A stretch of 64,000 nt of DNA from a virus. Lineage: Duplodnaviria; Heunggongvirae; Uroviricota; Caudoviricetes. The notes beneath the pieces were generated by a model that was not told the DNA's origin, ran no database searches, and worked only from the letters and a program-made list of their open reading frames with translations. Below are positions 17,886 through 58,696 of this stretch, piece after piece (position 1 is the first letter of the stretch; each line of letters starts with the position of its first letter). The position numbers and the translations under genes are program-made. The stretch is taken from IMG/VR virus record IMGVR_UViG_3300050821_008494, one strand, 5' to 3'.

Positions 17886-17888
17886 AGT

Positions 17889-36528: not shown

Positions 36529-37017
36529 ATGCCGAAGGGCAGCGGTAAAGAGCCACCGTCATACCTAGTAGCCGGAGACCGTCGCTCTCTCGAACTAATC
36601 TTCCAGAGGATGGACTTCGCCACAAACGCCTTGATTTTCGGAGACTACGACAACGCAATGGAAAATATTGAGGCTGCTTGGCAGCGTCTTCCTAACAGGC
36701 TGAAGGAGGATTTCGAAGAACCCAACGAGACTCTCAAGATTCAGATTGACAAGGTCCCTACTGAGAGCCAGCTCTGGGATGACCCAAACTTCATGGCTAC
36801 TAATCCCGGATGGAAGGACATAGAGCGATTCAGGGAGAACGCCATCAAGCGTCTGATTCATCGCCTAGTCTACGACTGCATCAACAAATACACGCAAGCC
36901 ATGGACACGGCAGGACTCTACATGAGGGAGTCCGGAGAAGGCACAGGAGTATTCGGCTCCTACGACGATGCCATCAAGGGACGCTCCTACAAGGTCAAAC
37001 AAATGGAGACTCCTTAG
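36529..37017 (+). CDS. hypothetical protein
   Basis: ORF track. Confidence 0.45.
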   Translation: MPKGSGKEPPSYLVAGDRRSLELIFQRMDFATNALIFGDYDNAMENIEAAWQRLPNRLKEDFEEPNETLKIQIDKVPTESQLWDDPNFMATNPGWKDIERFRENAIKRLIHRLVYDCINKYTQAMDTAGLYMRESGEGTGVFGSYDDAIKGRSYKVKQMETP

Positions 37018-38921: not shown

Positions 38922-39260
38922 ATGTTGAGTCACCAAAGCCCGAAGCTCAAGAGGGCACTGGCTCGGTATCGCCACGCACTAGGACCCGTTGAGGGAGTCC
39001 TAACAATCGTCATCGTAGGAGCGCTGCTTGCAGTGTCTCCGTTCGTCATCGGTTCTCTCCAGAACGGATTGAACACGTCCGGTCTGCCTTCGGCAGCCCA
39101 GACTTCCATAGGGAACATCTTCACCCAAATCTACAACGCATTGGGCATCGTGCCCCTTGTGCTGGTCATCCTCGCGCTAGTCATCATCCTGAGCGCCATC
39201 TTCTTGCTAGTCCCAAGAAGGGGTGGCGGAATGGTTGGTGGCGCTGGCGAAGCCGTCTAG
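38922..39260 (+). CDS. 2-TM membrane protein, paralog A1 of a triplicated family
   Basis: LTIVIVGALLAVSPFVIGSLQNGLNTSGLPSAAQTSIGNIF...LVLVILALVIILSAIFLLVPRR. Confidence 0.5.
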   Translation: MLSHQSPKLKRALARYRHALGPVEGVLTIVIVGALLAVSPFVIGSLQNGLNTSGLPSAAQTSIGNIFTQIYNALGIVPLVLVILALVIILSAIFLLVPRRGGGMVGGAGEAV

Positions 39261-39512: not shown

Positions 39513-39652
39513 TGGGAAAGAAAAGCCGACAGGATGTCAGGTCCATGGACTCTCACTATGAGTCGAGCGTCCACGACTTCGACATTTCTTCTGCTGACAA
39601 GATTGAAGGACTGACGAAGGGCAAAGGACTCGATACAGAGGGCGCAGTCTGA
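39512..39652 (+). CDS. small hypothetical protein
   Basis: TGATG-type overlaps on both sides. Confidence 0.3.
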   Translation: MGKKSRQDVRSMDSHYESSVHDFDISSADKIEGLTKGKGLDTEGAV

Positions 39653-39981
39653 TGCCTAGAGGCAGCAGGAATTCTCATCTCTACCAGCATGGAGGTAGAA
39701 GGGCTCACGAACCTGAGTTCGAGCGTAGATACGGAGCAGAGCATGGCAAAGAAGTCTATGGAGCAGTTGTAGGTCAAGTCCGAAGAGCCCGCATGGTGAA
39801 AGGCCTCTGTCGAGCAGGAAATTGCGGTCTTCGCTCAAGTCACAAGCATGGAGAGAACGATTGCTGCGGTGCACCTCTTCACTGTGCTCAGATTCTCGGC
39901 ACGGAGCAGCAAAGCAACAATCCGGCTTTCGGCCCTTCGACAATGCATGAAGTTCTTGATGGAGAAGGTCTCTTTGCGTGA
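39652..39981 (+). CDS. His/Cys-rich small protein, family member 1 (C-terminal FGPSTMHEVL)
   Basis: CRAGNCG...HKHGENDCCGAPLHCAQILGTEQ...PAFGPSTMHEVLDG. Confidence 0.45.
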   Translation: MPRGSRNSHLYQHGGRRAHEPEFERRYGAEHGKEVYGAVVGQVRRARMVKGLCRAGNCGLRSSHKHGENDCCGAPLHCAQILGTEQQSNNPAFGPSTMHEVLDGEGLFA

Positions 39982-40307
39982 CTCGGATGTCCTTTCCAGA
40001 CCCTACCGAGGACGCTTCGATAAGAAGCATAAGCCCGGTAGACGCGACGTTGACAATCGTGATAGTCGGAGCCCTGCTAGCAGTAGCTCCGTTTGTCATG
40101 GGGCTTCTTCAGAATGGAATCAAGACGGGAGGCCTACCTTCTACGGCTCAAACTTCCATATCGGGAGTCTTCACTCAAATCTTCAACACATTCAACATTC
40201 TTCCTCTCTACGTGGTAATCATTGCACTGGTCGGAATCCTTTCAACAATGATGCTCTTGTTCCCTCGAAGGAACAAGATAGAGTTTGGGGACGACACGGT
40301 AGTCTAG
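39978..40307 (+). CDS. 2-TM membrane protein, paralog A2
   Basis: GTGA overlap; LTIVIVGALLAVAPFVMGLLQNGIKTGGLPSTAQTSISGVF... Confidence 0.5.
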   Translation: MTRMSFPDPTEDASIRSISPVDATLTIVIVGALLAVAPFVMGLLQNGIKTGGLPSTAQTSISGVFTQIFNTFNILPLYVVIIALVGILSTMMLLFPRRNKIEFGDDTVV

Positions 40308-40319: not shown

Positions 40320-40547
40320 ATGGCCGCAGTCCTCGGAGCCGGAATCGGACTTGGTGCTACTCTCGGTGCTGCTGGAACAGTAACCTGTGCCGCAGGCGGA
40401 TGCGGAAGACCTACCAAGCATCACCACGGAGCTAACCCATGTTGCGGCTCCGAGCTTCATTGTGCCAAAATCCTCGGCGTGGAGCAAAGTAGCTCAAGAC
40501 CTGCATTCGGTCCTACTATGGACGAAGTCCTAACGGGAGTTCCTTGA
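40320..40547 (+). CDS. His/Cys-rich small protein, family member 2 (Gly/Ala-rich N-terminal hydrophobic segment)
   Basis: CAAGGCG...HHHGANPCCGSELHCAKILGVEQ...PAFGPTMDEVLTG. Confidence 0.45.
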   Translation: MAAVLGAGIGLGATLGAAGTVTCAAGGCGRPTKHHHGANPCCGSELHCAKILGVEQSSSRPAFGPTMDEVLTGVP

Positions 40548-40973: not shown

Positions 40974-41462
40974 ATGGCAACCAGCTACAACGTCCAAAGT
41001 CTGGCGCTTCTAGCTGGTCCTCTGACTTTCGCATTCGCCTCCATAATGATAGGAGTCGATGATGGCATACCGGCCATTCACGACATGGCTCTGATAACCG
41101 GAGCCTTATTCTTCGTCTTCTCTCACTTCGCCCATTCCATTACCTCCTTCGGCATCGTAGGAGTTCCTCGCGTAGGGCTCGGTCCGATAGAAGGCACACT
41201 CACAATCGTCGTAGTCGGAACTCTGAGCGCGGTCTCTCCATTCGTCGTAGGGAGCCTTCAGAACGGTCTCAATACCAGCGGCCTTCCTTCTGCCGCGAAG
41301 GTCTCAATCGGTAACATCTTCCAGCAAATCTACAACGCTCTTGGAATAGTCCCTCTCGTCCTCGTAATCCTCGCCCTAGTCGTAATCTTGTCTGCGGTCT
41401 TCCTTCTTGTTCCTCGACGCTCCGGCATGATGCTCGACACAGGAGGTTCGCAAGCGGTATGA
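40974..41462 (+). CDS. membrane protein, paralog A3 (extra N-terminal TMs)
   Basis: LTIVVVGTLSAVSPFVVGSLQNGLNTSGLPSAAKVSIGNIF...LVLVILALVVILSAVFLLVPRR. Confidence 0.5.
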   Translation: MATSYNVQSLALLAGPLTFAFASIMIGVDDGIPAIHDMALITGALFFVFSHFAHSITSFGIVGVPRVGLGPIEGTLTIVVVGTLSAVSPFVVGSLQNGLNTSGLPSAAKVSIGNIFQQIYNALGIVPLVLVILALVVILSAVFLLVPRRSGMMLDTGGSQAV

Positions 41463-41485: not shown

Positions 41486-41635
41486 ATGGAACAGGAGTTT
41501 GTCACACTCTATCGCCTCAATTGGGGCAACACAATAGGTCTGGAGACCTCTCGCGTAACAGGAATGTCAGACCGCGAGCTTGAGATGTCACTCGACAGTC
41601 AACGGAAGTTTCCGGGGAAGTTCAGAGGACCATGA
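41486..41635 (+). CDS. small hypothetical protein
   Basis: hand-found; stop overlaps next ATG. Confidence 0.25.
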   Translation: MEQEFVTLYRLNWGNTIGLETSRVTGMSDRELEMSLDSQRKFPGKFRGP

Positions 41636-41880
41636 GCGCAGCAGGTGCGGCCTTCGGGGTCATTGGTGCGGGTCTTCCTCTCATAGCAGGATTCATAGTC
41701 CTCGATGCAATAGCAGGGACAGTCAAGTGCACTCATCCCGGCTGCGGTGAAGAGATGCATCATTCAAAGCAAGCCTCTCATTCGAAGGCTCATCAGTCGA
41801 AAGGAGAGCACACCACTCACAAGACGATACAGCGGCACGAATTCGGTGGAGACATGGACTCGTGGCTCGGCCTTGGTTAA
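41632..41880 (+). CDS. His/Cys-rich small protein, family member 3 (Gly/Ala-rich N-terminal segment)
   Basis: TVKCTHPGCGEEMHHSKQASHSKAH...FGGDMDSWLGLG. Confidence 0.4.
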   Translation: MSAAGAAFGVIGAGLPLIAGFIVLDAIAGTVKCTHPGCGEEMHHSKQASHSKAHQSKGEHTTHKTIQRHEFGGDMDSWLGLG

Positions 41881-47644: not shown

Positions 47645-47651
47645 TTTAAAA
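47645..47651 (+). promoter_or_regulatory. TATA-like box TTTAAAA 24 nt upstream of ATG 47675 (leaderless-type spacing)
   Basis: seen in sequence. Confidence 0.4.
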
Positions 47652-47674: not shown

Positions 47675-47899
47675 ATGCCCAAGGTTCAAGCTGAGGCCGA
47701 ACAAGTTTTCGTTTTCACCTGCAAAGAAATTCTCACACACGGCATCACACGCGAGAAGCGTGAGTGCGGGAAGGTCATTCGCTCAATCTCTAGAGGTCAA
47801 TTCGACTACTGGGTTCAGGAGCACAAGGCCAAGCACGCTGCCAAGAAGAGAGGCATCAAGACCTCTCAAGCCCTCGCTTCAAAATCAAAGGCGAAGTAG
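47675..47899 (+). CDS. small basic protein
   Basis: ORF track. Confidence 0.4.
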   Translation: MPKVQAEAEQVFVFTCKEILTHGITREKRECGKVIRSISRGQFDYWVQEHKAKHAAKKRGIKTSQALASKSKAK

Positions 47900-48817
47900 T
47901 TGGCCGCTCCGTCACCGGAGCCCTTGAGCGGACTCCGCAAGTATCTCTCCGGTCGTCGAGCTAACGGCATCATCTCAGCCATAGCAGCAGGCGCACTCAT
48001 TCAAGCGATGCTCATCTTCGCAGTCGAACTCTTCCAAGTCAACGTCCCTCTCATCCAATTCTTCATAGGCCAAACTTCCGGCTCCGGAGGTCAGAGCCTC
48101 CAATACCAACCTCTCGGTTCCTCCCCATCAGGGCAAGCAGTCTCCGGATTCCTCTACATCATACCTGCCATAGCAGCCACCTTCGGCATGGTCTACCTAG
48201 CACGGCGCAATCCTCGTGTCTGGTTCAAGCTCGTGATAGGAATTGCCTTCGCGCTCGGCTCCTTCTTCATCGGCTTCGTCTCCTATTGGTGGTGGCTCGG
48301 CTTCTGGCCAACGGCAATCCTCATAGTCGGTCTGGCCACGGCAGTCTTGGTATCCTTTACGTTCAAGTCACGCACAAGAGCAGCTCTCGCAGGAGCACCT
48401 TTCAAAATCTGGTTCGCCGTAGGTTTTGCCTTTCTCTCTTTCCTCACACTCCCATTCTTCATGTGCCTAGCCATAATCTGCGGCTTTGCAGTCTGGGACA
48501 TAATCGCCGTCTTCCGAGGACCTCTCAAAGAAGTCGTCAAGTCAGAAGGCAAGGCCTTCCAATTCCTCCGCACTGCCCTGATGCTTGACTTCGGTCTCGG
48601 TGGCATCGGCCTCGGAGACCTCTACCTCTACAGCCTCATGACAATGCTCGCAGCGTCCCTCGGCTTCCATCAAGTCGAGGCCTCATACATTGCAATCCTC
48701 GCCGGAGTCATGCTCAGCTACTACCTCCTCCGCACACGCGAGAAGATTGGCCTGCCGGGGCTTCCTTTGCCGGTCCTCTTCTTCATAGTCTCCGTAGGAG
48801 CACTCACACTTGCCTAG
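47900..48817 (+). CDS. presenilin/signal-peptide-peptidase family (GxGD-type) intramembrane aspartyl protease homolog
   Basis: VWDIIAVFRGPLKEV vs PS1 VYDLVAVLCPKGPLRMLVE; GIGLGDLYLYS vs LGLGDFIFYS; LPGLPLPV vs LPALPISI (PAL motif). Confidence 0.55.
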   Translation: MAAPSPEPLSGLRKYLSGRRANGIISAIAAGALIQAMLIFAVELFQVNVPLIQFFIGQTSGSGGQSLQYQPLGSSPSGQAVSGFLYIIPAIAATFGMVYLARRNPRVWFKLVIGIAFALGSFFIGFVSYWWWLGFWPTAILIVGLATAVLVSFTFKSRTRAALAGAPFKIWFAVGFAFLSFLTLPFFMCLAIICGFAVWDIIAVFRGPLKEVVKSEGKAFQFLRTALMLDFGLGGIGLGDLYLYSLMTMLAASLGFHQVEASYIAILAGVMLSYYLLRTREKIGLPGLPLPVLFFIVSVGALTLA

Positions 48818-49016
48818 AGTCAACCCTCTCGAAGGGTGGAAGCTCTACAGCTCCTTCGGTATCAAACCTATTCCGAAACGCCTATGGTGGGTGTTCAGAT
48901 ACATTCCTCCTTCACGTCTTCGAAGGATGCGAGAAGGAACTTATCTCGCCATAGGTCCAAAGAGCCAAGTTGCCATGGTCACGGTTAGTTACGCTACTCC
49001 CAAGAGGGAGAGATAA
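48810..49016 (+). CDS. hypothetical basic protein
   Basis: TTG start. Confidence 0.3.
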   Translation: MPRVNPLEGWKLYSSFGIKPIPKRLWWVFRYIPPSRLRRMREGTYLAIGPKSQVAMVTVSYATPKRER

Positions 49017-49192
49017 TCACATCCTACAACGGAGGCATCTTCTGGACTTCGGGCAACGTCCACAACGTCGAATACGGCACAGTCCTCCTTGTCCTGACAA
49101 TCGTCGAACTCCGCTTCAACGTCCTCAAGCGCTTCCGCAGCTACATTGGCGACTTCTTCGGACGCCCAATTCACACCATCGAAATCTTCTCA

Positions 49193-49774
49193 ATGTCGGT
49201 CATCGTCTGGTTCTGGCTGAGCCTCTACTTCTTCGTTAAGTTCAACACCAACCTCATCAACCTCCGCGTAGTCAACGCCCTCGTTGGCACAGGGGTCGGC
49301 ACAGGACATTGGTTCGCATGGCTCGCAATAGCAGCCATAGCAACCCGTTGGGGATGGGACAACGCCCCAGCAGGCTTCCTCACGGTCGGACTCTACAGCG
49401 CCCTCCACGAAGGCTTCTGGTATGTCTTCTACTATGCCATCTACCCCGGCCAGATTGCACTGACATGGCTCTTCTATCTCCCATTCGGCTACCTCGGCCT
49501 CTGCCTGTCAATCTCCTACCTCCTCCTCTCCCGCAACCGCAAAGTTGACGAGCGCTACGCCAGCATACCCAAGATTCCAACCCGCATCTTCCTCATGACA
49601 ATCGCCCTCTTCCTAGTCACCGACATCATGTGGGCTATGGCAGGCTTCCCCGTCACTGTCCGTCTCGACACCGGACCCACTCCTCAATTCCCAGACCTCT
49701 CAACAAATCTCATCGAGGACAACAGCTGGGTGACCCCGGCACTTCCGCTCATCTTCTCCGAGAGGGAAAACTAG
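49193..49774 (+). CDS. polytopic membrane protein, member 1 of triplicated membrane-domain family
   Basis: TRWGWDNAPAGFLTVGLYSALHEGFW motif; in-frame upstream extension lacks ATG. Confidence 0.45.
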   Translation: MSVIVWFWLSLYFFVKFNTNLINLRVVNALVGTGVGTGHWFAWLAIAAIATRWGWDNAPAGFLTVGLYSALHEGFWYVFYYAIYPGQIALTWLFYLPFGYLGLCLSISYLLLSRNRKVDERYASIPKIPTRIFLMTIALFLVTDIMWAMAGFPVTVRLDTGPTPQFPDLSTNLIEDNSWVTPALPLIFSEREN

Positions 49775-49777: not shown

Positions 49778-49936
49778 GTGTGCGACAGAACCTGCACAGT
49801 TCACAAGAAGCCCTGTAAGGCAACTCACAACGGCAAAGACCCAATCCAAGGCCTCCTCAAAAGCCGGAGAGAACACTATCACCAAGGTTGGGCAATCTTC
49901 GGCAACGAGAACTGCAAATGGAGCCGTCCGAAATGA
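49778..49936 (+). CDS. small Cys-rich protein
   Basis: GTG start; stop overlaps next ATG. Confidence 0.3.
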   Translation: MCDRTCTVHKKPCKATHNGKDPIQGLLKSRREHYHQGWAIFGNENCKWSRPK

Positions 49937-50547
49937 GCGCCACACATGGCATCCCTGTTGAAAGTGACTTAGCGAAATCCGTCACTCGCCCCATCTACTA
50001 CTTCATATCAATCGTAGCAGTCGCGGCAGGCTTCTACTACATCTACACATACGACGGCCTCTCAAACCTCTCCCAAGCCTTCCCCGGCAACTTCAACGAC
50101 CGCATCGAGATTCCCGTCCCATTCACTCACTACCTTCTCCCAATCCTCCCTCCATCAGCGTTCGCCCTCGGCATCTCCCTCTTCTTCTACGAGCGCAAGT
50201 TTGGCTGGCGAGCCCTTCCACTTATCTTCATGGTCTCTGGCGCATTCGACTTCCTCTGGAACCGCGATGCCATCACCTTCATCTTCCAAGGAGACTTCTG
50301 GGTCTTCTTCCAACTCGCTATAATGATTGGTGGCTGGCTCGCTGCAGGACGTCCCAAGTTCCTCTCAACCAAGTATCTCTTCATCTGCCTCTTCCTCTTC
50401 GCTGTGACAAACTTCACCTACAACCAGCCATTCGAGTTCGGCCTTCTCCTCTACGTCTACACTTCGACATCTTGGCCATCAAAGCGAGATACTGTCCTCA
50501 TTCGCGAGGCCTCCGAATATATTCCAAGCAGGAGTCCTCCAACTTGA
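49933..50547 (+). CDS. polytopic membrane protein, member 2
   Basis: RKFGWRALPLIFMVSGAFDFLWN motif. Confidence 0.45.
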   Translation: MSATHGIPVESDLAKSVTRPIYYFISIVAVAAGFYYIYTYDGLSNLSQAFPGNFNDRIEIPVPFTHYLLPILPPSAFALGISLFFYERKFGWRALPLIFMVSGAFDFLWNRDAITFIFQGDFWVFFQLAIMIGGWLAAGRPKFLSTKYLFICLFLFAVTNFTYNQPFEFGLLLYVYTSTSWPSKRDTVLIREASEYIPSRSPPT

Positions 50548-50831
50548 GTGACGACTCTTCCAAGGCAGACAAGCTCGGCCTCTTCCAGAAAGTCCTCGAT
50601 GCCTTCGCGGAAGGCAGGACAATATCACGCAAAGACCTTCACCTCCTCCAAGACCTAGCCTACAGGCTTACAGAGACAGACGATGTCCGAAGGTTCCGTC
50701 TCAAGCTCCTGTTCGTGAAGGACATCGTAATCTGGATTAGCTTCCTCGCCACAGTCATCTTCGTAGTCCAGTATGCCTTCGATTTCATAGCCGCACTTCA
50801 CGGCTTTGGAAGGATTGGGAACAGCTTTTGA
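50544..50831 (+). CDS. small protein with C-terminal TM
   Basis: TTGA overlap. Confidence 0.35.
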   Translation: MSDDSSKADKLGLFQKVLDAFAEGRTISRKDLHLLQDLAYRLTETDDVRRFRLKLLFVKDIVIWISFLATVIFVVQYAFDFIAALHGFGRIGNSF

Positions 50832-52069
50832 CAATCACCCAGACGCTCGGCAACTCGAAGCTCCTCAACATAGGAGCCTACGCAGGAACCATATTCTTCA
50901 TGCTCTGGGCTCTCTACAACGCACTCACCTACGGTTGGGACTACTACAGCGACTACATCCCATTCCTCCCGAAGGGCTTCCGCATCTTTGCGGCATGGCC
51001 ATACTCCATCCTAGTCTTCGGAATCCTCGCCCTCTACTGCATCAAGCGCTACGGCTGGCCGGGTCTCTTCTTTGCCGCAGCCATCAACGAACTCTGGGAA
51101 CTCGCCTACGACATGACACCGGCAGTCATCCAAGTCCGCTACTGCCCCGAGGTCTACTCCGTCCCCGGCCAAAACTACCTCTTCTGCGCAGTCAACGAGT
51201 CAGCAATCTTCGACCCGCACTTCTTCCTCTACATTGGCCAAGGCATAGCTCTCGTCCTCTTCGCATTCGCAATGGTCCTCCAATTCAGAGGCTACACCTT
51301 CAGCATCAAGAACCTCGGCAAGCTCTTCATCCTCCAATGGCTCTTCTCCATAGCAACGTGGCCATGGAGCATCTGGTATGAGTTCCTCGCCGAAGTCTCG
51401 GTCGTCCTTCTCTTCTTCCTTCTCGAAGTCCCGCAAGATGCCGTGAGCATCTACGGTCAAGCAACCGACAAGCTTGACGAGAAGTTCTTTGACCATCAAA
51501 CCGAGCAGGGCTTCTCCGTAGCAGCGACCGCTGTGGCAAACTCTCTCAAGACAATTCTGTCACCCACAGAGGCCCTCGATGTTGGCTGTGGCAAAGGCTT
51601 TCTCGTGCGCCAGCTTAACCTCTTGGGAGTCAAGTCCTGCGGAATGGACAAGAGCCTCTACGCCATACAACACAGAGCCTCCGGTCTCGACCAAAATGAA
51701 CTCATGTTAGGCGACATATCCGCACGCACATCACTAATGGACGGCTACTTCGACCTAGTCACCTGCATCGGAGTCCTTCAATACCTAGACGACAAGCACT
51801 CTGCTCTCAGGGAGATGAGGCGTCTACTCCAGACCGGAGGAAAGCTCTTCATAGCGTTCCCACTTCATAGGCGTAGCCAGAAGCCCTTTGCCGAATCCGT
51901 AGAGCATCTCGGCTTCAAGTTCCTTCCCGACTCCTCCGAGGAACTCGCCAAGCTCTACCCATACATCCTCGGCAGAAAGTTCGGCCTCCTCAGCAAGTGG
52001 CCATTCAAAGTCCTGATACCCCGTTTCCAGAAAGACGACTTCGCCTTCCTCTGCTTTCAGGCGATATGA
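50828..52069 (+). CDS. membrane domain (member 3) fused to class I SAM-dependent methyltransferase
   Basis: N-terminal KRYGWPGLFFAAAINELWELAYD; C-terminal LDVGCGKGFLVRQL (motif I), DLVTCIGVLQYL, GGKLFIAFP. Confidence 0.55.
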   Translation: MTITQTLGNSKLLNIGAYAGTIFFMLWALYNALTYGWDYYSDYIPFLPKGFRIFAAWPYSILVFGILALYCIKRYGWPGLFFAAAINELWELAYDMTPAVIQVRYCPEVYSVPGQNYLFCAVNESAIFDPHFFLYIGQGIALVLFAFAMVLQFRGYTFSIKNLGKLFILQWLFSIATWPWSIWYEFLAEVSVVLLFFLLEVPQDAVSIYGQATDKLDEKFFDHQTEQGFSVAATAVANSLKTILSPTEALDVGCGKGFLVRQLNLLGVKSCGMDKSLYAIQHRASGLDQNELMLGDISARTSLMDGYFDLVTCIGVLQYLDDKHSALREMRRLLQTGGKLFIAFPLHRRSQKPFAESVEHLGFKFLPDSSEELAKLYPYILGRKFGLLSKWPFKVLIPRFQKDDFAFLCFQAI

Positions 52070-52770
52070 TGGAGCCACAATCTAGGATTCCAGAGTTCTC
52101 CGGCACCACAGTATCCATTGTCATCCCTGCTCACAACGAGCGCGACACAATACGCAACATAGTGGCAGGCTGTCTCCCATACGGCGAAGTCATCGTTGTA
52201 GATGACGGCAGCACGGATGACACTTCAGCACAAGCCACAGAAGCAGGGACTAGAGCTAACCCCAAGCTCGTAATCCTACACAAGAACTTCGGTTACTCCT
52301 ACGCCATCAAGAAAGGCTATGAAGCCTCAACAGGCGAAATCATAGCCCTCGTAGATGCAGACGGACAGCAGAACCCCGACGAACTCCACAGGCTCCTTTC
52401 CCCAATCCTCAACGACGAAGCCGACATGGTCATCGGTTCCAAAATCCTCGGCACCATGGACTACGAGCCAGCAATCGCGAACTCCCTTATGAACGAGACA
52501 TGGCAGAACCTCATCCTGTGGCGCTTCGGAGTAAACCTCACTCACCCCTTCAGCGGCATGAGGGCAATGCGCAAGTCCTGCATCGACATGAGCGCCCTCA
52601 AATCTAATCGCTTCGAGTCCATGCTGGAGCTTGACATCTCATTCATCAAGAACGGTTACAGGATTCTCGAAGTCCCTCGCGTCGCCCGAGCCCGGACCAA
52701 AGGCAAGTCTCATGTCACACTAGCAGACGGCCTTCGTGTCATGTGGAGAGGAGCACAGCTCCTCCTATGA
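52066..52770 (+). CDS. GT2-family glycosyltransferase (dolichyl-phosphate sugar synthase / GtrB-like)
   Basis: VSIVIPAHNE, VIVVDDGSTDDT, DADGQ. Confidence 0.6.
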   Translation: MMEPQSRIPEFSGTTVSIVIPAHNERDTIRNIVAGCLPYGEVIVVDDGSTDDTSAQATEAGTRANPKLVILHKNFGYSYAIKKGYEASTGEIIALVDADGQQNPDELHRLLSPILNDEADMVIGSKILGTMDYEPAIANSLMNETWQNLILWRFGVNLTHPFSGMRAMRKSCIDMSALKSNRFESMLELDISFIKNGYRILEVPRVARARTKGKSHVTLADGLRVMWRGAQLLL

Positions 52771-53264
52771 CTCTCTTCAGCTGGACCTTCCGCAGAGTCC
52801 TCGCCGTCTCAGTAGCAACCCCAGCACTAGCCATAGGCTACATAGTCACATGGCTCCTCATAGTCCATGTCCACTACCAAACAGTAGGCGTCCTCTCCTC
52901 CGTCTTCATAGGAGACATCTCAGCATTCATATTCGGCCAAGCCACACAAGACTACCAATACAGGTTCATGCTCCGCTTCAAGTCCTTCCGCGAGATAATG
53001 CCGCAGCGCAAGAGCCCCAAATCAGACACACCACAGAAGTTCATCAAGCGCAGGTTCCTCAGCTTCCTAACCCTCTTCCCTCCCATGGCATTCAACTACC
53101 TCGCCGTCTTCGTCCTCATCTCCTTCATCCACTTCCACACCGTCTGGATTCTCTCGGCAGTCCTAGTCGGCGATGGTCTGGGTTTCGCTTTCAACAGTCT
53201 CACCCTCGACTATCAGTTTAAGTTCCTCATGCACTTCGAGTCCTTCAAGGAGCTTCTAGATTGA
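52767..53264 (+). CDS. GtrA-like 4-TM protein with internal tandem duplication
   Basis: two halves each TM + DYQ(Y/F)(R/K)F(M/L)(L/M)(R/H)F(K/E)SF(R/K)E(I/L)(M/L); ATGA overlap with GT2. Confidence 0.45.
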   Translation: MTLFSWTFRRVLAVSVATPALAIGYIVTWLLIVHVHYQTVGVLSSVFIGDISAFIFGQATQDYQYRFMLRFKSFREIMPQRKSPKSDTPQKFIKRRFLSFLTLFPPMAFNYLAVFVLISFIHFHTVWILSAVLVGDGLGFAFNSLTLDYQFKFLMHFESFKELLD

Positions 53265-53406
53265 AGCCCGAACCAGCCAAGCCTATGCCGTCCAAGAAGA
53301 CAGCATCACAGCAAGAGACCATCGAAGAGCAGGACATCAACAAAGAAGCAGCAGCATGGTGCGACCCTCCCTAAGTTAAATAGCAGCCCAACAGACAAGC
53401 CCTTCC

Positions 53407-54546
53407 GTGCAGAGCGACCCTTTGCAACTGAGCCTCAACATTTGCGGCGTCTCTGGAAGTCGTCGCCACGGAAACACTCTCTACCTCGTAGAGCGAGCCC
53501 TTAGAGCTGCCAGCGTCTTCTTCGACGAGATGAATGTCTCCTCCAGAGGGCACCTCAAGATAACCTCAACCTTCTCCAAAGTGGAGACTGGCTTCGACAA
53601 ATCCTCAGATGCCGAGGTCCTTATGTCACGAGCAGACGGCCTCCTTCTGGCCTCTCCCGTTTACTTCGGTTCCATATCCCCGTCCCTCAATCAAGCACTC
53701 AAGAACATATCACGAATCGAGGGACTCTCCGAGAAGTCCGGAGCCTGCGTAACTATCGGCACTCAGCGCAATGGAGGGCAAGAGACCGCCATCGAAGACA
53801 TCTACCGCTGGTTCATGGCTCGCAGCGTGACCTTCGTCGGTAACGGTCCCGTGACATCCCAATACGGAGGCACAGTCTGGGGAGGCGCAATCGGCACGGC
53901 AGAGAACGACGAGTATGGACTTCACACGACAGAAGGCACAGGCAAGCGCCTAGCCCAAGACGTCCTCCTGCGAGCCATAGGCAAGAAGGTCACATTGGAG
54001 AACTCCACAATCCGTGTCCCTCGCTTCCTCTTCTTCTGCGACTCCGAAACACCCCAGTGGCGTCTCGACCATTCCAAAGGCCGAGTCCCTCCATACACCG
54101 CAGACTACCTATTCCTCAAGGAGGACTTGGCCAACGTCGAAGACTGCGTCGCCTGCGCAACCTGCCCTCCCGGCAATCTCAAGGAGCCGGGAGTCTACGG
54201 TTGCATCTTCAACGACGACCTCAACACCAACTACGAGCGCTTCTACTCAGCCAACACAATCATCTGTTCCGCGAACGACCAAGACGGCCTCTGCTCTCCA
54301 GACTACTGGAAAGTCCTCAACCGCATGAGAAGCGTCCGACGGAACAACTACGACCTTACGGGACGCTGCGGAGCCATGATGGGAACTTCCATGGTTCCTC
54401 TCAAGTGGCTTATCCGCAACAATCTTCCCATCGTCCCCTCAGAGCCCAACCTCATGTATCGCGAATCCCTCTACCGCATGGCAGGCCTCGAATACATGAA
54501 GTCAATCGGAATGTCCCCTTGGACGGAGCCGACAATCCATGAGTAG
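53407..54546 (+). CDS. NAD(P)H-dependent FMN reductase-like flavoprotein with Cys-rich C-terminal domain
   Basis: ADGLLLASPVYFGSISPSLNQALK (flavodoxin-like FMN reductase); C-terminal CVACATCPP plus 5 more Cys; GTG start. Confidence 0.5.
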   Translation: MQSDPLQLSLNICGVSGSRRHGNTLYLVERALRAASVFFDEMNVSSRGHLKITSTFSKVETGFDKSSDAEVLMSRADGLLLASPVYFGSISPSLNQALKNISRIEGLSEKSGACVTIGTQRNGGQETAIEDIYRWFMARSVTFVGNGPVTSQYGGTVWGGAIGTAENDEYGLHTTEGTGKRLAQDVLLRAIGKKVTLENSTIRVPRFLFFCDSETPQWRLDHSKGRVPPYTADYLFLKEDLANVEDCVACATCPPGNLKEPGVYGCIFNDDLNTNYERFYSANTIICSANDQDGLCSPDYWKVLNRMRSVRRNNYDLTGRCGAMMGTSMVPLKWLIRNNLPIVPSEPNLMYRESLYRMAGLEYMKSIGMSPWTEPTIHE

Positions 54547-54736
54547 TAGAACAAAACTGTCACAATCTCAGATAATACAGCTAGCAGACGACTTAGTCGT
54601 CGAGATTCTATCTAGCCCTGCCATGGCTCCATTCCGTGAAGCGTGGTTCTCTGGAAGATGGGACTTGCCAATGTTCGAATACTCACGAAGACAGAAGCAG
54701 CGAATCCGTTTGGCTATGAGGGGCTTCTTCACTTGA
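54539..54736 (+). CDS. small hypothetical protein
   Basis: ATGA overlap. Confidence 0.3.
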   Translation: MSSRTKLSQSQIIQLADDLVVEILSSPAMAPFREAWFSGRWDLPMFEYSRRQKQRIRLAMRGFFT

Positions 54737-55017
54737 CAGACTCAAAGCTCCTCGGGACATTCCAGCAAGGTCACACCAAGGTCTTTCCCGACCGCATAGA
54801 GATTGACGGCAACAAGCTCCTCTTCTCCGACCTCCATCACATCGAAGGAGAAGGCACCGAAGTCATCATAGTCCTTCACAACGGCCTACCAGTCTCTCTC
54901 AGCATCACAGGCGAGGAAATCGTCTCAGCTTCCAACTTCAAGATAATGGTCTGGAGGGCCTACAAGCTCTGGAAGAAAGACCCCACAGCAGGCAGTCACG
55001 GAGTCGTCGGCTATTGA
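54733..55017 (+). CDS. hypothetical protein
   Basis: TTGA overlap in frame of ORF 54643..55017. Confidence 0.35.
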   Translation: MTDSKLLGTFQQGHTKVFPDRIEIDGNKLLFSDLHHIEGEGTEVIIVLHNGLPVSLSITGEEIVSASNFKIMVWRAYKLWKKDPTAGSHGVVGY

Positions 55018-55123
55018 ACGACACACTCAAGGGATTTCTGGCTCTGGTTGGCTTCCTCCTTTTCATAGACGGGCTCGCATTAGGAATGACCTTCTTTACA
55101 GTTCACATGGTAGCTCTGATACC

Positions 55124-55999
55124 ATGAAGACCGTCCTAGTCACCGGAGCAGGAGGCCCCGCAGGAATGGCAGTCCTCCAGTCTCTCAAAGTAGCCCCAGA
55201 GAAGTTCAAGACCGTTGCCGTAGATTCAAGCCCACGCGCCGCAGGCCTTCTCAAGGCCACATACTCCAGAGTCGTCCTCAAGTGCAACGAGCCCGGTTAC
55301 ATAGACCAGCTCAGAGCACTCTGCGAGGAATACCACGTTGACGTCATCATACCTACCGTCGATGAAGAGATTCCATACCTCGTCCAATCCGGAGTCTTTA
55401 GCGATGGCATGGCACGCGCAATCCTTCCGGACGAGCGAGCAGTCAAGATGGCACAGGACAAACTCTCCTACCAATTTCTCGAAGTCGATACTCCAACAAC
55501 CGTCCCCTTCCCCGCCATAATCAAGATGCGCCGAGGTCGAGGCTCCAAGGGCATCCGCTTCCTCGACAAGGAGCCAATAGACATGATAGTCCAAGAGCGC
55601 ATCCCCGGTGACGTCTACCTCGCACAAGCCCTCTGCAAAGACGGTGAAGTCCTGCGCTGGTGCATCACAAAGCGCCTCGACCCTGCCGTCGGTCCGGCAA
55701 CCTCGGCAGTCTCAGCCTACGACCTCAACATAGCCGACCGGCTTCAGAAAGTCGTCAAGACCCTCCGCTGGAACGGAGCCATAGGAATCGAGTTCATCCT
55801 TTCCAAGACCAACGGCTCATACTACCTCATAGACATCAACGCCCGCATCTGCGGTCAGTCCCATCTCTGCACCATGGCAGGCATGAACCTCGCATACGGT
55901 CTAGTCCAGCTCTCCCTCGGCCAAGAGGTCACAATCTCCAAGGAATACAAAACAGACGTCACCTTCGTCCGCGCATGGGAGGACACCACAATTGGATGA
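55124..55999 (+). CDS. ATP-grasp family enzyme (carboxylate-amine ligase-like)
   Basis: VLVTGAGGPAG N-domain; EFILSKTNGSYYLIDINARICGQS C-domain. Confidence 0.5.
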   Translation: MKTVLVTGAGGPAGMAVLQSLKVAPEKFKTVAVDSSPRAAGLLKATYSRVVLKCNEPGYIDQLRALCEEYHVDVIIPTVDEEIPYLVQSGVFSDGMARAILPDERAVKMAQDKLSYQFLEVDTPTTVPFPAIIKMRRGRGSKGIRFLDKEPIDMIVQERIPGDVYLAQALCKDGEVLRWCITKRLDPAVGPATSAVSAYDLNIADRLQKVVKTLRWNGAIGIEFILSKTNGSYYLIDINARICGQSHLCTMAGMNLAYGLVQLSLGQEVTISKEYKTDVTFVRAWEDTTIG

Positions 56000-56219
56000 A
56001 GACATCTACTCTGTGGACTCCATACGGAAGTTCGCGAATCAAACCGAGGTCGAACCTACAGGCGAGTTCCATTCTGTCTTATGTCGCGTCGCCTATCAAC
56101 TCCAATCCAAAATAATCACTCGCGAGCAGGCAATCGAGAGGCTCAAGCCCTACGATTATCCAAACAGGCTGAACCCCGAAATCAACCAAGTCGATTTCTC
56201 CGAGGGTCCCACACGATGA
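55992..56219 (+). CDS. hypothetical protein
   Basis: ORF track. Confidence 0.35.
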   Translation: MDEDIYSVDSIRKFANQTEVEPTGEFHSVLCRVAYQLQSKIITREQAIERLKPYDYPNRLNPEINQVDFSEGPTR

Positions 56220-56752
56220 GCCCTACTCGACCGGGTGTAGCTACACGTCCGAGCGAGCAACGTCTCAAGAGTAAAATTTACCAGAGTCACGTCATTCGTA
56301 GAATCATATCCGGTTCCGAAGTCTGCAACAAGTGTGGTGCACCTTTAGTCCTCGACGAGAATTGGCAGGTCTACTACGCGAATCTCGTTTGCAAGTCGTG
56401 TAGAAGCGAAGAGGGCAAAAGGGAATATTGGAAATCCGGCAGGCTCCTAAAATCTACCAAAGCTCCGTTTCTCGCCATGAGGATGAAGGTAGAGGTTTTC
56501 TCTCATTATTGCAGAGGCAAGATTAAGTGTCTTCGATGCGGAGAAAACGATTTGAGAGTTCTTAGCCTAGACCATATCAACGGAAGCACTAAGGAGGAGA
56601 AGCTACTACGAAGGGCTACCGGCTCTAATCTCTACAAGCATCTCAGACGCAACAATTACCCTCCGGGCTTTCAGGTTCTGTGTATGAACTGCCAATATAG
56701 GAAGAGGTGGGATAAGAGAGAATTCAGGAAGATGGCGGAGAAGCGCAATTGA
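56216..56752 (+). CDS. HNH endonuclease-like protein
   Basis: CNKCG...CKSC and LSLDHINGS...N...LCMNCQ; locally AT-richer. Confidence 0.5.
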   Translation: MSPTRPGVATRPSEQRLKSKIYQSHVIRRIISGSEVCNKCGAPLVLDENWQVYYANLVCKSCRSEEGKREYWKSGRLLKSTKAPFLAMRMKVEVFSHYCRGKIKCLRCGENDLRVLSLDHINGSTKEEKLLRRATGSNLYKHLRRNNYPPGFQVLCMNCQYRKRWDKREFRKMAEKRN

Positions 56753-57357
56753 ACGTATTAGCTATCGGGGCTCATCCGGACGATTGCGAGTTTGGCGTCT
56801 TCGGAACTCTTCACCGTCATGTCAAGAAGGGTGACAAGGTCACCATCCTCGTCCTTACGAAGGGCGAGCAGGGAGGAAACTGCAACATGAGAGAAGCTGA
56901 GGCCACAAGAGCTGCCAAGCTCCTCGAATCTGAAATCATCTTCGGTGAGTTCCAAGACGGCTACCTTCGCGACAACCACAAGCTAGTCAACGAAATAGAG
57001 GAGGTCATCAATGCCGCAGAAGCCGACCTTGTCTATACCCACAGCGACAAAGACCGTCACCAAGACCATAGATACTGCTCTCTTGCATCAGTTGCCGCTG
57101 CCCGTCGAGTCAACACAGTCCTCCTCTTCGAGACCCCAAGCACAGTCCATGGTTTCATCCCTCAACTCTTCATAGACATCACAGACAGCGTCGATGTGAA
57201 GCTCAAGTCCCTCCGTCAACACGAGAGCCAGCTTCCAAAGCGCTACCTCGAAGAGGGAGCAGTCACTGGCCTCGCTACATACCGCGCATATCAGGCTGGC
57301 CTTCCCGGTCGTATGGCAGAGGCATTCGAAGTTGTCCGTGAGGTGCGTCAAATCTGA
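56749..57357 (+). CDS. PIG-L/LmbE-family N-acetylglucosaminyl deacetylase
   Basis: LAIGAHPDDCEFG, HQDHRY; TTGA overlap. Confidence 0.6.
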   Translation: MNVLAIGAHPDDCEFGVFGTLHRHVKKGDKVTILVLTKGEQGGNCNMREAEATRAAKLLESEIIFGEFQDGYLRDNHKLVNEIEEVINAAEADLVYTHSDKDRHQDHRYCSLASVAAARRVNTVLLFETPSTVHGFIPQLFIDITDSVDVKLKSLRQHESQLPKRYLEEGAVTGLATYRAYQAGLPGRMAEAFEVVREVRQI

Positions 57358-57473
57358 ACCGTGATGGCCAGTTCCTCGACCGTGCGGCAGAGGTCAGCGT
57401 CACAGAGAAAGAGATAGACCGCGTCATTGGAGAACTCACGGAGAGCTTTGGCTTCTCCGTCGTCTACTCCGCA

Positions 57474-57617
57474 ATGAAGATGCACGTCCTCTTTATGGAG
57501 ATGTCATTCACAGACAAACAGCTGAGCCGCATCAAGTCCGAGATAGAAGACCGCGTCTCAACTCATGCCAAGTTCAGGGAGCGCCGCATATCCGAGCAGA
57601 AGAGGCCTCCCAAATGA
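57474..57617 (+). CDS. small hypothetical protein (possibly longer, non-canonical start)
   Basis: in-frame protein-like extension back to 57342 without ATG/GTG/TTG. Confidence 0.25.
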   Translation: MKMHVLFMEMSFTDKQLSRIKSEIEDRVSTHAKFRERRISEQKRPPK

Positions 57618-57826
57618 ACCACGACGAGAAGGTCGAAGTCATAGCTGCACGTCAGCACGACCTATGGTGTGCCCTAACCAAGACCCTCGCATCAAAGGAG
57701 ACCCTGAACCCTGACCGGCTTCGCCGTTGGGAGACCTTCTGGAAACCCTACGCAGAACTCTCTGATGGCCAGAAGGAGCGAGCCCGCATGGAAGCCGAGA
57801 AGCTCCTCGAACTCATAGGAGAATAA
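57614..57826 (+). CDS. hypothetical protein
   Basis: ATGA overlap. Confidence 0.35.
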   Translation: MNHDEKVEVIAARQHDLWCALTKTLASKETLNPDRLRRWETFWKPYAELSDGQKERARMEAEKLLELIGE

Positions 57827-57832
57827 GCCCAC

Positions 57833-58534: not shown

Positions 58535-58696
58535 GTGTCTACACAACTTCCAGACAGCTATGATATTCGGCGCTATGCCTTTCGGTCCTGTTACTTTGAT
58601 TGGGAGGTCAAGAGGACATTACATCGAAGGTCCTTGGGAAGTCGTCGTCGAGAACGGCTCAGTAATCCTGCGTCCAGTCAAGACTGACTCCAAGAA

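What the first reader, a model, noticed from the sequence alone, without database searches (positions are those of the whole stretch)
47900..48817. Presenilin/SPP-family GxGD intramembrane aspartyl protease encoded in a virus-like element
Motifs align closely with presenilin. TM6 reads VWDIIAVFRGPLKEV against PS1 VYDLVAVLCPKGPLRMLVE. TM7 reads GIGLGDLYLYS against LGLGDFIFYS. The PAL region reads LPGLPLPV against LPALPISI. A mobile-element-borne presenilin homolog is unusual. Substrates could be the His/Cys-rich proteins with Gly/Ala-rich TM segments, or the surface proteins.
Basis: partly seen in the sequence, partly recalled or inferred. Interest (0 to 1): 0.6.

Follow-up and report, generated by a model that had tools for sequence, protein, structure and literature searches.

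The report
Presenilin-like protease on archaeal mobile element
A large mobile genetic element linked to soil Nitrososphaerales archaea carries its own, very divergent copy of the presenilin-type protease that cuts proteins inside membranes; the enzyme type is well known, but finding it on a mobile element is rare and its targets are unknown.

Summary
ORF 47900..48817 (+, 305 aa, TTG start) is a real presenilin/PSH-type GxGD intramembrane aspartyl protease homologue. Family profiles hit presenilin-1/2 (E 2e-26) and archaeal PSH (1.6e-15). An AlphaFold model has nine TM helices, and its top 25 PDB matches are all presenilin, PSH or SPPL2a. Both catalytic Asp (D200 in WD, D240 in GLGD) and the PGL (PAL-equivalent) motif are invariant in 59 relatives. 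All 20 Lys/Arg residues sit on the presenilin-type cytoplasmic side.

The host DNA is a mobile element of at least 114-185 kb. About 84 kb could be read. It has no housekeeping genes and no tRNAs, but does have its own replication genes. A relative is integrated in a Nitrososphaerales chromosome. Whether the element is a virus or plasmid/conjugative is unresolved.

The protease belongs to a small, strongly supported clade (window, P0002, L092/L093), at most about 29% identical to cellular PSHs in the trimmed alignment. I found no relative in phage, plasmid or IMG/VR collections. Together with a 74-aa Cys/His protein it forms a variable cassette at the head of a glycan-synthesis cluster. A syntenic sister element lacks the cassette. 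Substrates are inferred only. It is a new member of a known family in an unusual context.

The parts
47645..47651 (+). TATA-box-like TTTAAAA, 23 nt before the ATG of the small ORF. It is the likely archaeal promoter of a leaderless small-ORF + protease transcript (inferred).
   Evidence: Sequence read. Such A/T hexamers at -40..-22 occur at 0.8% of random positions in the window.
47675..47899 (+). 74-aa basic Cys/His-containing soluble protein. Its TAG stop directly abuts the protease TTG start. It is the conserved upstream partner of the protease.
   Evidence: A 56% identical homologue sits directly upstream of P0002 in L001/L002 and was found nowhere else in 1.4 Mb of loci. No Pfam or PADLOC family.
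47900..48817 (+). Presenilin/PSH-type GxGD intramembrane aspartyl protease homologue, 305 aa, nine predicted TM helices, N-terminus cytoplasmic.
48491..48535 (+). TM6 motif VWDIIAVFRGPLKEV. The first catalytic Asp, D200, is codon 48497-48499 (WD in place of YD).
   Evidence: D200 is invariant in 59 relatives and aligns with PS1 D257. Coordinates.
48602..48634 (+). TM7 motif GIGLGDLYLYS (GxGD). The second catalytic Asp, D240, is codon 48617-48619.
   Evidence: G237, G239 and D240 are invariant. The motif aligns with PS1 GLGD385.
48752..48775 (+). LPGLPLPV, the PAL-motif equivalent (P286-G287-L288), just before TM9.
   Evidence: P286, G287, L288 and P289 are invariant in 59 relatives. The motif aligns with PS1 PAL433-435.
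48810..49016 (+). Short ORF or spacer between the protease and the next gene. It weakly resembles residues 235-287 of the 37021-type ATPase, so it may be a recombination scar. It is absent from L001/L002, where the genes overlap.
   Evidence: E 7e-4 to 2e-5. L001 gene order.
49013..49774 (+). Polytopic membrane protein of a small family tied to glycan-synthesis genes. The true N-terminus lies upstream of the ATG at 49193, where no canonical start codon is available.
   Evidence: (24 representatives in 1.84e9 proteins; homologues align from residue ~8).
49888..50547 (+). Second polytopic membrane protein. It always accompanies the previous one in related elements, with or without the protease.
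50828..63371 (+). Glycan or surface-sugar biosynthesis cluster: TM + SAM-methyltransferase, GT2, FMN reductase-like, ATP-grasp, PIG-L deacetylase, NAD-epimerase, GT4 (minus strand, 59652..60791), DegT aminotransferase (~60807..61919) and aldo-keto reductase.
   Evidence: The cluster is syntenic in L086.
40320..40547 (+). Candidate substrate (hypothesis): a 75-aa protein with an uncharged N-terminal Gly/Ala-rich TM helix followed by a Cys/His-rich tail.
41632..41880 (+). Candidate substrate (hypothesis): an 82-aa protein with an N-terminal Gly/Ala-rich TM helix and a Cys/His/Lys-rich tail. Its L086 homologue has a C-x2-C-x12-H-x5-H finger.
   Evidence: Pfam gives a weak zf-C2H2 hit for the L086 protein.
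37021..38196 (+). FtsK/HerA-fold P-loop ATPase, a core gene of the element family. It could serve virus packaging or conjugation or DNA translocation.
   Evidence: Homologues occur in L086 (57% identity) and in L090, integrated in a Nitrososphaerales contig (63%).

Best explanation
The ORF encodes a stand-alone, cofactor-independent intramembrane aspartyl protease of the archaeal presenilin-homologue (PSH, peptidase A22) type. It has nine TM helices with the N-terminus in the cytoplasm. The two catalytic aspartates (D200 in TM6, D240 in the GLGD of TM7) face each other inside the membrane, and the PGL motif before TM9 supports the active site. These points are shown at the level of sequence and predicted structure.

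The gene lies on a large mobile element (at least 114-185 kb) associated with Nitrososphaerales. This is shown for the element family and inferred for this member. It is an accessory gene. Together with a 74-aa Cys/His protein it forms a two-gene cassette, apparently transcribed from a TATA-like promoter at the head of a membrane-protein and glycan-biosynthesis cluster. A syntenic sister element lacks the cassette.

The role is inferred. By analogy with PSH and presenilin, the enzyme cuts the membrane-spanning helices of N-out/C-in (type I) membrane proteins with short ectodomains, or left-over membrane stubs. The most likely targets are among the element's own many membrane proteins: secreted Ser/Thr-rich surface proteins with C-terminal anchors, small 2-TM hydrophobic proteins, and Gly/Ala-rich-TM Cys/His proteins. 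The effect would be to process or clear them during the element's remodelling of the host envelope.
For: Family and fold. Pfam Presenilin gives E 1.5e-6. Profile searches against PDB give PS1 4.8e-16 with 4 sequences, and PS2/PS1 2e-26 and PSH 1.6e-15 with 59 sequences. D200, G237, G239, D240 and P286-G-L-P289 are invariant. The AF2 model has pLDDT 75.8, pTM 0.76 and nine helices. The top 25 Foldseek PDB hits are all PS1, PS2, PSH or SPPL2a. All 20 K/R residues lie on the N-terminus or the TM2/3, TM4/5, TM6/7 and TM8/9 side. The TM6-TM7 loop is short (~30 aa) and no APH-1, PEN-2 or nicastrin hits occur in the neighbours. MCMJR1 PSH is active without cofactors (PMC2947513).

Mobile context. There are no tRNA or Rfam hits. 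The flanks carry replication genes. Related elements are L086, L088, L089 and L090. L090 is flanked by PurA and IMPDH that cluster at 90% identity or more with Nitrososphaerales MAG proteins.

Accessory cassette. L086 is syntenic from window 34.8 to 62 kb but lacks both 47675 and the protease. The small ORF occurs only together with the protease.

Distinct clade. The window, P0002, L092 and L093 group with NJ bootstrap 299/300. L093 carries an HNH endonuclease and a transposase fragment.

Substrate pool. 31 of 102 plus-strand ORFs have predicted TM segments.
Against: There is no biochemical evidence. The single-sequence Pfam score is below the gathering cut-off (27.7 against 34.3 bits). The motifs deviate from the canon: WD instead of YD, and PGL instead of PAL (though PGL is universal in the relatives). 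Model confidence is low in the TM1-TM2 loop and only moderate in TM2-TM5. No substrate is identified. A sister element does without the gene, so it is dispensable. Host chromosomes of this lineage already encode a PSH (for example L006 in a 1.8 Mb chromosome), so the need for a second copy is unexplained. The element type and the host of this particular contig are inferred, not shown. I could not read about 100 kb of the 185 kb contig.
Confidence: 0.7

Rival explanations
1. The enzyme is the same, but it is aimed at host proteins. The element would use it to cleave host membrane proteins (receptors, S-layer anchors, sensors), either to block superinfection or to take over envelope biogenesis.
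For: The gene is accessory and varies among related elements, as is typical of host-interaction genes. It sits at the head of a surface-glycan cluster. It is very divergent from cellular PSHs: at most about 29% identity in the trimmed alignment and 26-33% in tblastn best segments. That divergence could reflect a changed specificity.
Against: No host target can be named. No defence or exclusion family was detected. The element itself encodes many candidate substrates. This rival differs from the best explanation only in the choice of substrate.
Confidence: 0.2
2. It is an ordinary housekeeping PSH on a cellular chromosome, and the window is a gene-poor or island region of an archaeal genome rather than a mobile element.
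For: PSH genes are common on chromosomes of Nitrososphaeria, Bathyarchaeia and Asgard archaea, with 181 genomic relatives found. I could not read all of the 185 kb contig.
Against: About 84 kb has no tRNA, rRNA or housekeeping gene. Genes are almost all on one strand and most have no known family. The region carries its own replication genes. The protein falls outside all cellular clades with 299/300 bootstrap support. Only three related lineages were found among 5.8e9 proteins and the metagenome scan. A syntenic relative lacks the gene.
Confidence: 0.05
3. It is a presenilin-fold protein that no longer acts as a protease, for example a scaffold, a leak channel or a chaperone for the neighbouring membrane proteins.
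For: It sits on a long branch. Tyr of the YD motif is replaced by Trp in the window and P0002. Its Pfam score is sub-threshold.
Against: Both Asp, both Gly of GxGD and the PGL motif are strictly conserved across a clade whose members share only 34-44% identity. That pattern is what purifying selection on catalysis would produce. The neighbouring TM proteins occur without it in L086, L088 and L089, so it is not their obligate partner.
Confidence: 0.04
4. It is a type IV prepilin or archaellin peptidase (family A24, also GxGD-type) belonging to a conjugation or pilus apparatus, like those carried by thaumarchaeal integrative-conjugative elements.
For: Thaumarchaeal ICEs do encode prepilin peptidases and pilins (PMC6563490). 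The element has an FtsK/HerA-fold ATPase that resembles TrwB and VirB4, and it has small hydrophobic proteins.
Against: There is no Pfam Peptidase_A24 hit even at E<=10. All significant PDB sequence and fold hits are A22 enzymes; no FlaK or PibD-type structure appears. The two Asp lie within adjacent TM helices. In A24 enzymes they lie in soluble loops (PMC2947513).
Confidence: 0.01

Closest known systems
Archaeal presenilin homologue PSH / MCMJR1 (Methanoculleus marisnigri; PDB 4HYC/4HYG/4Y6K), and the 'presenilin-like A22 family membrane protease' of Nitrososphaeria and Bathyarchaeia
   Same: Similar size (~290-305 aa), nine TM helices, catalytic Asp in adjacent TM6 and TM7, and a short TM6-TM7 loop. 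No partner subunits are encoded nearby. PSH matches with profile E 1.6e-15 and Foldseek TM-score 0.55-0.71. The PGL motif is shared with all TACK and Asgard relatives.
   Different: Only 15-18% identical to MCMJR1 in the structural alignment, and at most about 29% identical to any cellular relative in the trimmed alignment. It forms a separate clade. It has WD in place of YD, a Ser/Gly-rich TM1-TM2 loop and a conserved SYWWW segment in TM3. It is carried on a mobile element rather than a chromosome.
[quoted passage not shown]
   Same: It is the best profile and fold match (E 2e-26; Foldseek probability 1.00, TM-score up to 0.66, 20-24% identity). The alignment covers TM1-TM9, with D257, D385 and PAL opposite D200, D240 and PGL. 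The inferred orientation is the same.
   Different: There is no long cytoplasmic loop for endoproteolysis and no long N-terminal extension. No nicastrin, APH-1 or PEN-2 homologues occur in the neighbourhood. The adjacent conserved TM proteins belong to the glycan cluster and occur without the protease.
Signal peptide peptidase / SPPL2a, including the only viral GxGD protease found here (Megaviridae environmental 'signal peptide peptidase' A0A5J6VK56)
   Same: Same superfamily fold (SPPL2a E ~1e-3, TM-score 0.55-0.58; viral SPP E 3.9e-4). This gives a precedent for a virus-borne member.
   Different: The matches are weaker (13-14% identity). SPPs have the opposite membrane orientation and cleave type II substrates (established knowledge), whereas the charge distribution here indicates the presenilin orientation. 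The viral precedent comes from giant viruses of eukaryotes, not from an archaeal element.
Type IV prepilin peptidases (A24) on thaumarchaeal integrative-conjugative elements
   Same: These are GxGD-type aspartyl membrane proteases known to be carried by mobile elements of the same host phylum (PMC6563490).
   Different: They are an unrelated family with a different arrangement of the catalytic Asp. No sequence or fold match was found.

Membership tests
Peptidase A22 (presenilin / SPP / PSH GxGD intramembrane aspartyl proteases) | Polytopic membrane protein with nine TM helices | tested here: met
   AF2 helices are 10-48, 78-103, 105-133, 136-154, 158-183, 186-206, 238-252, 256-279 and 289-304. 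The hydropathy peaks are consistent with them. This is a prediction only.
Peptidase A22 (presenilin / SPP / PSH GxGD intramembrane aspartyl proteases) | First catalytic Asp in a YD motif in TM6 | tested here: met
   D200 lies in helix 186-206. It is invariant in 59 relatives and aligns with PS1 D257. The preceding residue is W here and in P0002, and Y in most others.
Peptidase A22 (presenilin / SPP / PSH GxGD intramembrane aspartyl proteases) | Second catalytic Asp in a GxGD motif in the adjacent TM7 | tested here: met
   G237-L-G-D240 lies at the start of helix 238-252. G237, G239 and D240 are invariant, and the motif aligns with PS1 GLGD385.
Peptidase A22 (presenilin / SPP / PSH GxGD intramembrane aspartyl proteases) | PAL motif just before the last TM helix | tested here: met
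   P286-G287-L288 aligns with PS1 P433-A-L435 and is invariant in 59 relatives as PGL. The variant is not unusual: MCMJR1 itself has PPL (PMC2947513).
Peptidase A22 (presenilin / SPP / PSH GxGD intramembrane aspartyl proteases) | Significant match to the curated family model | tested here: inconclusive
   Pfam PF01080 gives E 1.5e-6 but 27.7 bits, below the gathering score of 34.3. The clade member L092 passes at 45.8 bits. Profiles built from relatives hit PS1/PS2 at 2e-26. There is no NCBIfam hit.
Peptidase A22 (presenilin / SPP / PSH GxGD intramembrane aspartyl proteases) | Presenilin fold | tested here: met
   In Foldseek against PDB, ranks 1-25 are all PS1, PS2, PSH or SPPL2a, with probability 0.97-1.00 and TM-score up to 0.66 (query-normalised) and 0.71 (target-normalised). 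The next hits have probability 0.11 or less.
Peptidase A22 (presenilin / SPP / PSH GxGD intramembrane aspartyl proteases) | Asp-dependent cleavage of a transmembrane substrate, inhibited by transition-state analogues | not testable with these tools
   This needs biochemistry, as was done for MCMJR1 (PMC2947513).
Presenilin-type orientation (presenilin/PSH) as opposed to SPP-type | N-terminus and TM6-TM7 loop cytoplasmic | tested here: met
   By the positive-inside rule, 20 of 20 K/R residues lie at or nearest the N-terminus and the TM2/3, TM4/5, TM6/7 and TM8/9 loops, and none on the other side. This is a prediction only.
Gamma-secretase complex | Partner subunits nicastrin, APH-1 and PEN-2, and a long TM6-TM7 loop that is endoproteolysed | tested here: not met
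   The loop is about 30 residues. The neighbouring proteins have no Pfam hits. The two adjacent conserved TM proteins occur without the protease in L086, L088 and L089.
Type IV prepilin peptidase (A24) | Peptidase_A24 domain with Asp residues in cytoplasmic loops | tested here: not met
   No Pfam hit at E<=10. No A24 structure appears among the PDB sequence or fold hits.
Virus (as opposed to another kind of mobile element) | Capsid and packaging hallmark genes (MCP, portal, terminase, or DJR MCP plus A32-like ATPase) | tested here: inconclusive

The most novel reading that the evidence does not exclude
The element runs a Notch-like regulated intramembrane proteolysis circuit. The protease would cleave the Gly/Ala-rich N-terminal TM helices of small membrane-tethered Cys/His (zinc-finger-like) proteins encoded by the element (40320..40547 and 41632..41880). 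These proteins are predicted to be N-out/C-in with an ectodomain of only 2-4 residues, which is the ideal geometry for a presenilin substrate. Cleavage would release their metal-binding tails into the cytoplasm as regulators. This would be the first natural substrate class for any archaeal presenilin homologue, and the first such circuit on a prokaryotic mobile element. In favour: the geometry fits. Such proteins are specific to this element family. In L086 the homologue of 41632 occupies the very slot that the protease cassette occupies here. Against: L086 shows no protease in the 20 kb read, and nothing links the genes functionally.
Probability: 0.12. Interest if true: 0.75.

Novelty: new member of a known kind. 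Interest (0 to 1): 0.42.

Why it matters
Archaeal presenilin homologues are the structural and mechanistic models for gamma-secretase. In the literature I searched, only model and APP-derived substrates are reported for them, and I found no natural substrate or physiological role.

A copy carried as an optional cassette on a mobile element narrows the search. The element encodes a small, defined set of about 30 membrane proteins, and two of them have textbook presenilin-substrate geometry. The question 'what does an archaeal presenilin cut?' therefore becomes directly testable by co-expression.

The finding also adds intramembrane aspartyl proteolysis to the repertoire of accessory functions seen on archaeal mobile elements. 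None appeared in 50,697 phage and archaeal-virus genomes, 72,556 plasmids or the IMG/VR scan. It also points to a family of large Nitrososphaerales-associated elements that I did not find described, each carrying its own glycan-synthesis cluster.

Tried and rejected
1. Gamma-secretase-like complex with the two conserved downstream TM proteins. Rejected: those proteins have no APH-1 or PEN-2 signal. They occur next to glycan genes without any protease in L086, L088 and L089.

2. Prepilin peptidase. Rejected.

3. Read-through fusion of the 74-aa ORF with the protease. In the window the two are in the same frame, separated only by TAG. In L001 the two genes are in different frames, so fusion is not conserved.

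4. Borg-like element. There are no tandem repeats, and the host lineage is different.

5. Defence system. No PADLOC hits for the protease, the small ORF or the ATPase module.

6. Spindle-virus capsid identity of the 2-TM proteins. No match in phage and archaeal-virus genomes or IMG/VR, and no Pfam family. This remains an untested resemblance recalled from memory.

7. Fetching the source contig or close relatives. The first metagenome scan found nothing. IMG/VR scans with the ATPase and the 2-TM protein also found nothing. The look-up of encoding contigs failed for P0001 and two other window proteins.

8. General promoter survey. Only 4 of 47 gap-preceded ORF starts had a TATA-like hexamer. This is too weak to define a promoter consensus.

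9. Literature. No paper links presenilin homologues with archaeal viruses or with mobile elements of Thaumarchaeota. The run accession SRR7094834 was not found in the searched text.

10. A first bootstrap script timed out, and a second had an invalid distance clamp. Only one search is used for support values.
Full report
**Observation.** JGI, Logan and ENA gene calls give the same protein. The three quoted motifs are present at residues 198-212, 235-245 and 285-292 (nt 48491-48535, 48602-48634 and 48752-48775). HMMER aligns them with PS1 VYD257LVAV..KGPL, GLGD385FIFYS and LPAL435PISI.

**Family assignment.**
- Alone, the sequence hits only Pfam Presenilin (E 1.5e-6, 27.7 bits, below the 34.3-bit gathering score). 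It hits no NCBIfam or PHROG family.
- The word-indexed search of 5.8e9 proteins found just four hits. These were itself, one 40%-identical protein (P0002), and two distant PF06550/PF01080 proteins, one of them from a Helarchaeota MAG.
- A profile of these four hits presenilin-1 at 4.8e-16 and archaeal PSH (4HYC) at 9.4e-9. A profile of 59 relatives reaches 2e-26 and 1.6e-15.
- D200, V204, G207, G237, G239, D240, S245, G269 and P286-G-L-P289 are invariant across those 59 sequences.
- An AlphaFold2 model (pLDDT 75.8, pTM 0.76) has nine long helices. D200 lies in helix 186-206, and G237-L-G-D240 lies at the start of helix 238-252.
- Foldseek against the PDB returns only presenilin-1/2, PSH and SPPL2a in ranks 1-25, with TM-scores 0.55-0.66 for the full-length matches. 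The next hits have probability 0.11 or less.
- All 20 Lys/Arg residues lie at the N-terminus or at the TM2/3, TM4/5, TM6/7 and TM8/9 junctions. This is the presenilin/PSH orientation rather than the inverted SPP one.
- The TM6-TM7 loop is about 30 residues, and nothing resembling nicastrin, APH-1 or PEN-2 is nearby. The protein is therefore a PSH-like stand-alone enzyme. The characterised PSH, MCMJR1, works without cofactors and also lacks a canonical PAL, having PPL instead (PMC2947513).
- A prepilin-peptidase (A24) identity is excluded.

**The surrounding DNA.**
- The window has no tRNA genes and no Rfam hits, and no tandem repeats. Its genes lie almost entirely on one strand.
- Most proteins have no Pfam or PHROG family. 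About 30% (31 of 102 plus-strand ORFs) have predicted TM segments.
- The identical proteins occur on contigs of 185,236 bp (JGI), 114,287 bp (ENA) and 114,176 bp (Logan SRR7094834).
- The 9 kb to the left of the window encodes two clamp-loader-like proteins, a PD-(D/E)XK exonuclease and a primase-helicase.
- To the right lie an 1838-aa repeat-rich secreted protein and a 970-aa ResIII/DEAD helicase.
- No capsid, portal or terminase gene was recognised.
- Its 63%-identical homologue lies in a 63-kb contig (L090) next to adenylosuccinate lyase, adenylosuccinate synthase and IMP dehydrogenase. The synthase and the dehydrogenase fall in 90%-identity clusters with Nitrososphaerales MAG proteins.
- The element family is thus associated with Nitrososphaerales, and some members integrate. 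Whether this large member is a virus, a plasmid or a conjugative element is unresolved. 'Virus-like' should be read as 'mobile element'.

**Local anatomy.**
- A TATA-like TTTAAAA (47645-47651) lies 23 nt before the ATG of a 74-aa basic Cys/His protein at 47675..47899. That ORF's TAG stop abuts the protease start codon.
- Downstream come two polytopic membrane proteins (49013/49193..49774 and 49888..50547). A glycan-biosynthesis cluster follows, containing methyltransferase, GT2, FMN-reductase-like, ATP-grasp, PIG-L, epimerase, GT4, DegT and aldo-keto reductase genes.
- The P0002 contigs (L001/L002) share the order small protein, protease, TM protein, TM protein, followed by epimerases.
- The sister element L086 is syntenic with the window from 34.8 to 62 kb, with 40-63% identity in most genes. 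It lacks both the small ORF and the protease.
- In L088 and L089 the two TM proteins again sit beside glycan genes without a protease. They belong to a tiny family of 24 representatives among 1.84e9 proteins.
- The TM proteins are therefore components of the glycan cluster, not protease partners. The small ORF plus the protease form a variable accessory cassette.

**Phylogenetic position and rarity.**
- The species-genome scan found 181 relatives, almost all in Nitrososphaeria, Bathyarchaeia and Asgard MAGs, at 26-33% identity for matches that span most of the protein.
- The second metagenome scan added L092/L093, a 287-aa protein that is 34-37% identical and passes Pfam's cut-off. In L093 it sits next to an HNH endonuclease, a transposase fragment and small ORFans.
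- In an NJ tree of 107 sequences, the window and P0002 group in 293 of 300 bootstraps. The four-member clade (window, P0002, L092, L093) groups in 299 of 300, outside all cellular clades. Its sister group is not resolved.
- tblastn with the window protein, and with a typical cellular PSH (P0046), found nothing in 50,697 phage and archaeal-virus genomes or in 72,556 plasmids.
- Two motif scans of IMG/VR found nothing.
- The viral structure library gave one match, a Megaviridae 'signal peptide peptidase'.
- The literature searches found no report of a presenilin homologue on an archaeal virus or on a thaumarchaeal mobile element.

**Mechanism.**
- Shown at the level of prediction: the protein is a nine-TM, N-in, two-Asp intramembrane protease of the PSH type.
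- Inferred: it is active without cofactors and cuts N-out/C-in transmembrane helices with short ectodomains. Its targets are probably the element's own membrane proteins, or stubs left after secretion of the large Ser/Thr-rich surface proteins (9944..20612 and 63422 onwards).
- The most interesting candidates are two small proteins (40320..40547 and 41632..41880) with uncharged Gly/Ala-rich N-terminal TM helices and Cys/His/Lys-rich tails. The L086 homologue of the second has a C2H2-type finger, and it sits where the protease cassette sits here.
- Their release by intramembrane cleavage would be a Notch-like circuit. This reading is not excluded, but only geometry and position support it. I give it about 12% probability.
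- Rival readings and my estimates: host-directed cleavage (0.2), chromosomal housekeeping gene (0.05), non-catalytic protein (0.04), prepilin peptidase (0.01).

**Verdict.** The finding is real and correctly identified. The enzyme kind is known, so I file it as a new member of a known kind. It represents a distinct subfamily borne on mobile elements, in a context that appears to be unreported. Interest is moderate (0.42). A specialist would be mildly surprised. The main value is that it offers a tractable route to natural substrates of archaeal presenilin homologues.

Noticed in passing
window 48989-49774: The gene after the protease is mis-called at its 5' end. The frame is open from 48989, and homologues (L001 252 aa; 20 or more database relatives) align from about residue 8 of a start near 49013-49037. 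No ATG, GTG or TTG exists before 49193. ATA (49013) or ATC (49016, 49037) follows a purine-rich GAGGGAGAG, which suggests a non-canonical start codon.
   Followed up: partly
window 38922-41880: Three tandem repeats of a gene pair. Each pair has a small 2-TM hydrophobic protein (38922..39260, 39978..40307, 40974..41462; 80% identity between the first and third over 93 aa) followed by a small Cys/His-rich protein (39652..39981, 40320..40547, 41632..41880). The 2-TM proteins recall spindle-virus capsid proteins, but that resemblance is from memory and untested. 21820..22155 and the C-terminal part of 13480..14043 look similar.
   Followed up: partly
window 33150-38196; L090 8200-11182; L086 1194-5519: A conserved module recurs in related elements, including one integrated next to purine-biosynthesis genes of a Nitrososphaerales genome. 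It comprises the 269-aa HTH-containing protein (33656..34465, -), a 169-aa protein with an IEVK motif that may mark a PD-(D/E)XK-type nuclease (33150..33659, -; untested), a 162-aa protein (36529..37017) and the FtsK/HerA-fold ATPase (37021..38196).
   Followed up: partly
window 48810-49016: The 68-aa ORF between the protease and the next gene weakly resembles residues 235-287 of the 37021-type ATPase (E 7e-4 to its own copy, about 2e-5 to the L086 and L090 copies). It may be a remnant of the recombination that brought in the cassette.
   Followed up: no
window 9944-20612, 29860-30621, 63422-64000 (continues in L083 10813-16329): A series of very large Ser/Thr/Gly-rich proteins of 1055, 626, 449, 907, 253 and 1838 aa. 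Several have N-terminal signal-like and C-terminal TM segments, and the 1838-aa one is internally repetitive. None has a known family. They may be surface or adhesin proteins that the glycan cluster decorates.
   Followed up: no
window 59652-61919: The 678-aa + strand ORF 59883..61919 is an artefact in its N-terminal half. The real genes are a GT4 glycosyltransferase on the minus strand (59652..60791) and a DegT aminotransferase from about 60807 (gene calls in L083; the L086 homologues match both).
   Followed up: yes
window 1-9609 and L084 1-10000: A nucleic-acid-metabolism region. It holds two clamp-loader-like AAA+ proteins, a PD-(D/E)XK exonuclease, a DUF3987 primase-helicase and a DUF6011 protein (all left of the window). 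Inside the window it holds a YspA/SLOG-family protein (3196..3708), an HD-domain protein (4554..5027), a methyltransferase-like protein (5323..5967) and an RNase H-like protein (8926..9609).
   Followed up: partly
window 31506-32519: A membrane-anchored SPFH/Band-7 (HflC/stomatin-like) protein (Pfam 1.1e-23; PHROG 200). In bacteria such proteins modulate membrane proteases, so it is another membrane-quality-control gene on the element.
   Followed up: no
L093 2790-3862; L092 129-1219: In the third lineage of the element-type protease clade, the gene immediately upstream is a 74-aa 2-TM protein (weak DUF202) rather than the Cys/His protein. An HNH endonuclease and an IS240-like transposase fragment lie 1-2 kb upstream.
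   Followed up: partly
contig geometry (L083, L084, L085): The ENA contig (114,287 bp) ends at about window position 3089 and extends leftwards. The Logan contig (114,176 bp) spans about -8.9 kb to +105 kb relative to the window start. The JGI contig is 185,236 bp. The different break points are compatible with a circular or circularly permuted genome of about 185 kb, but this was not tested.
   Followed up: no
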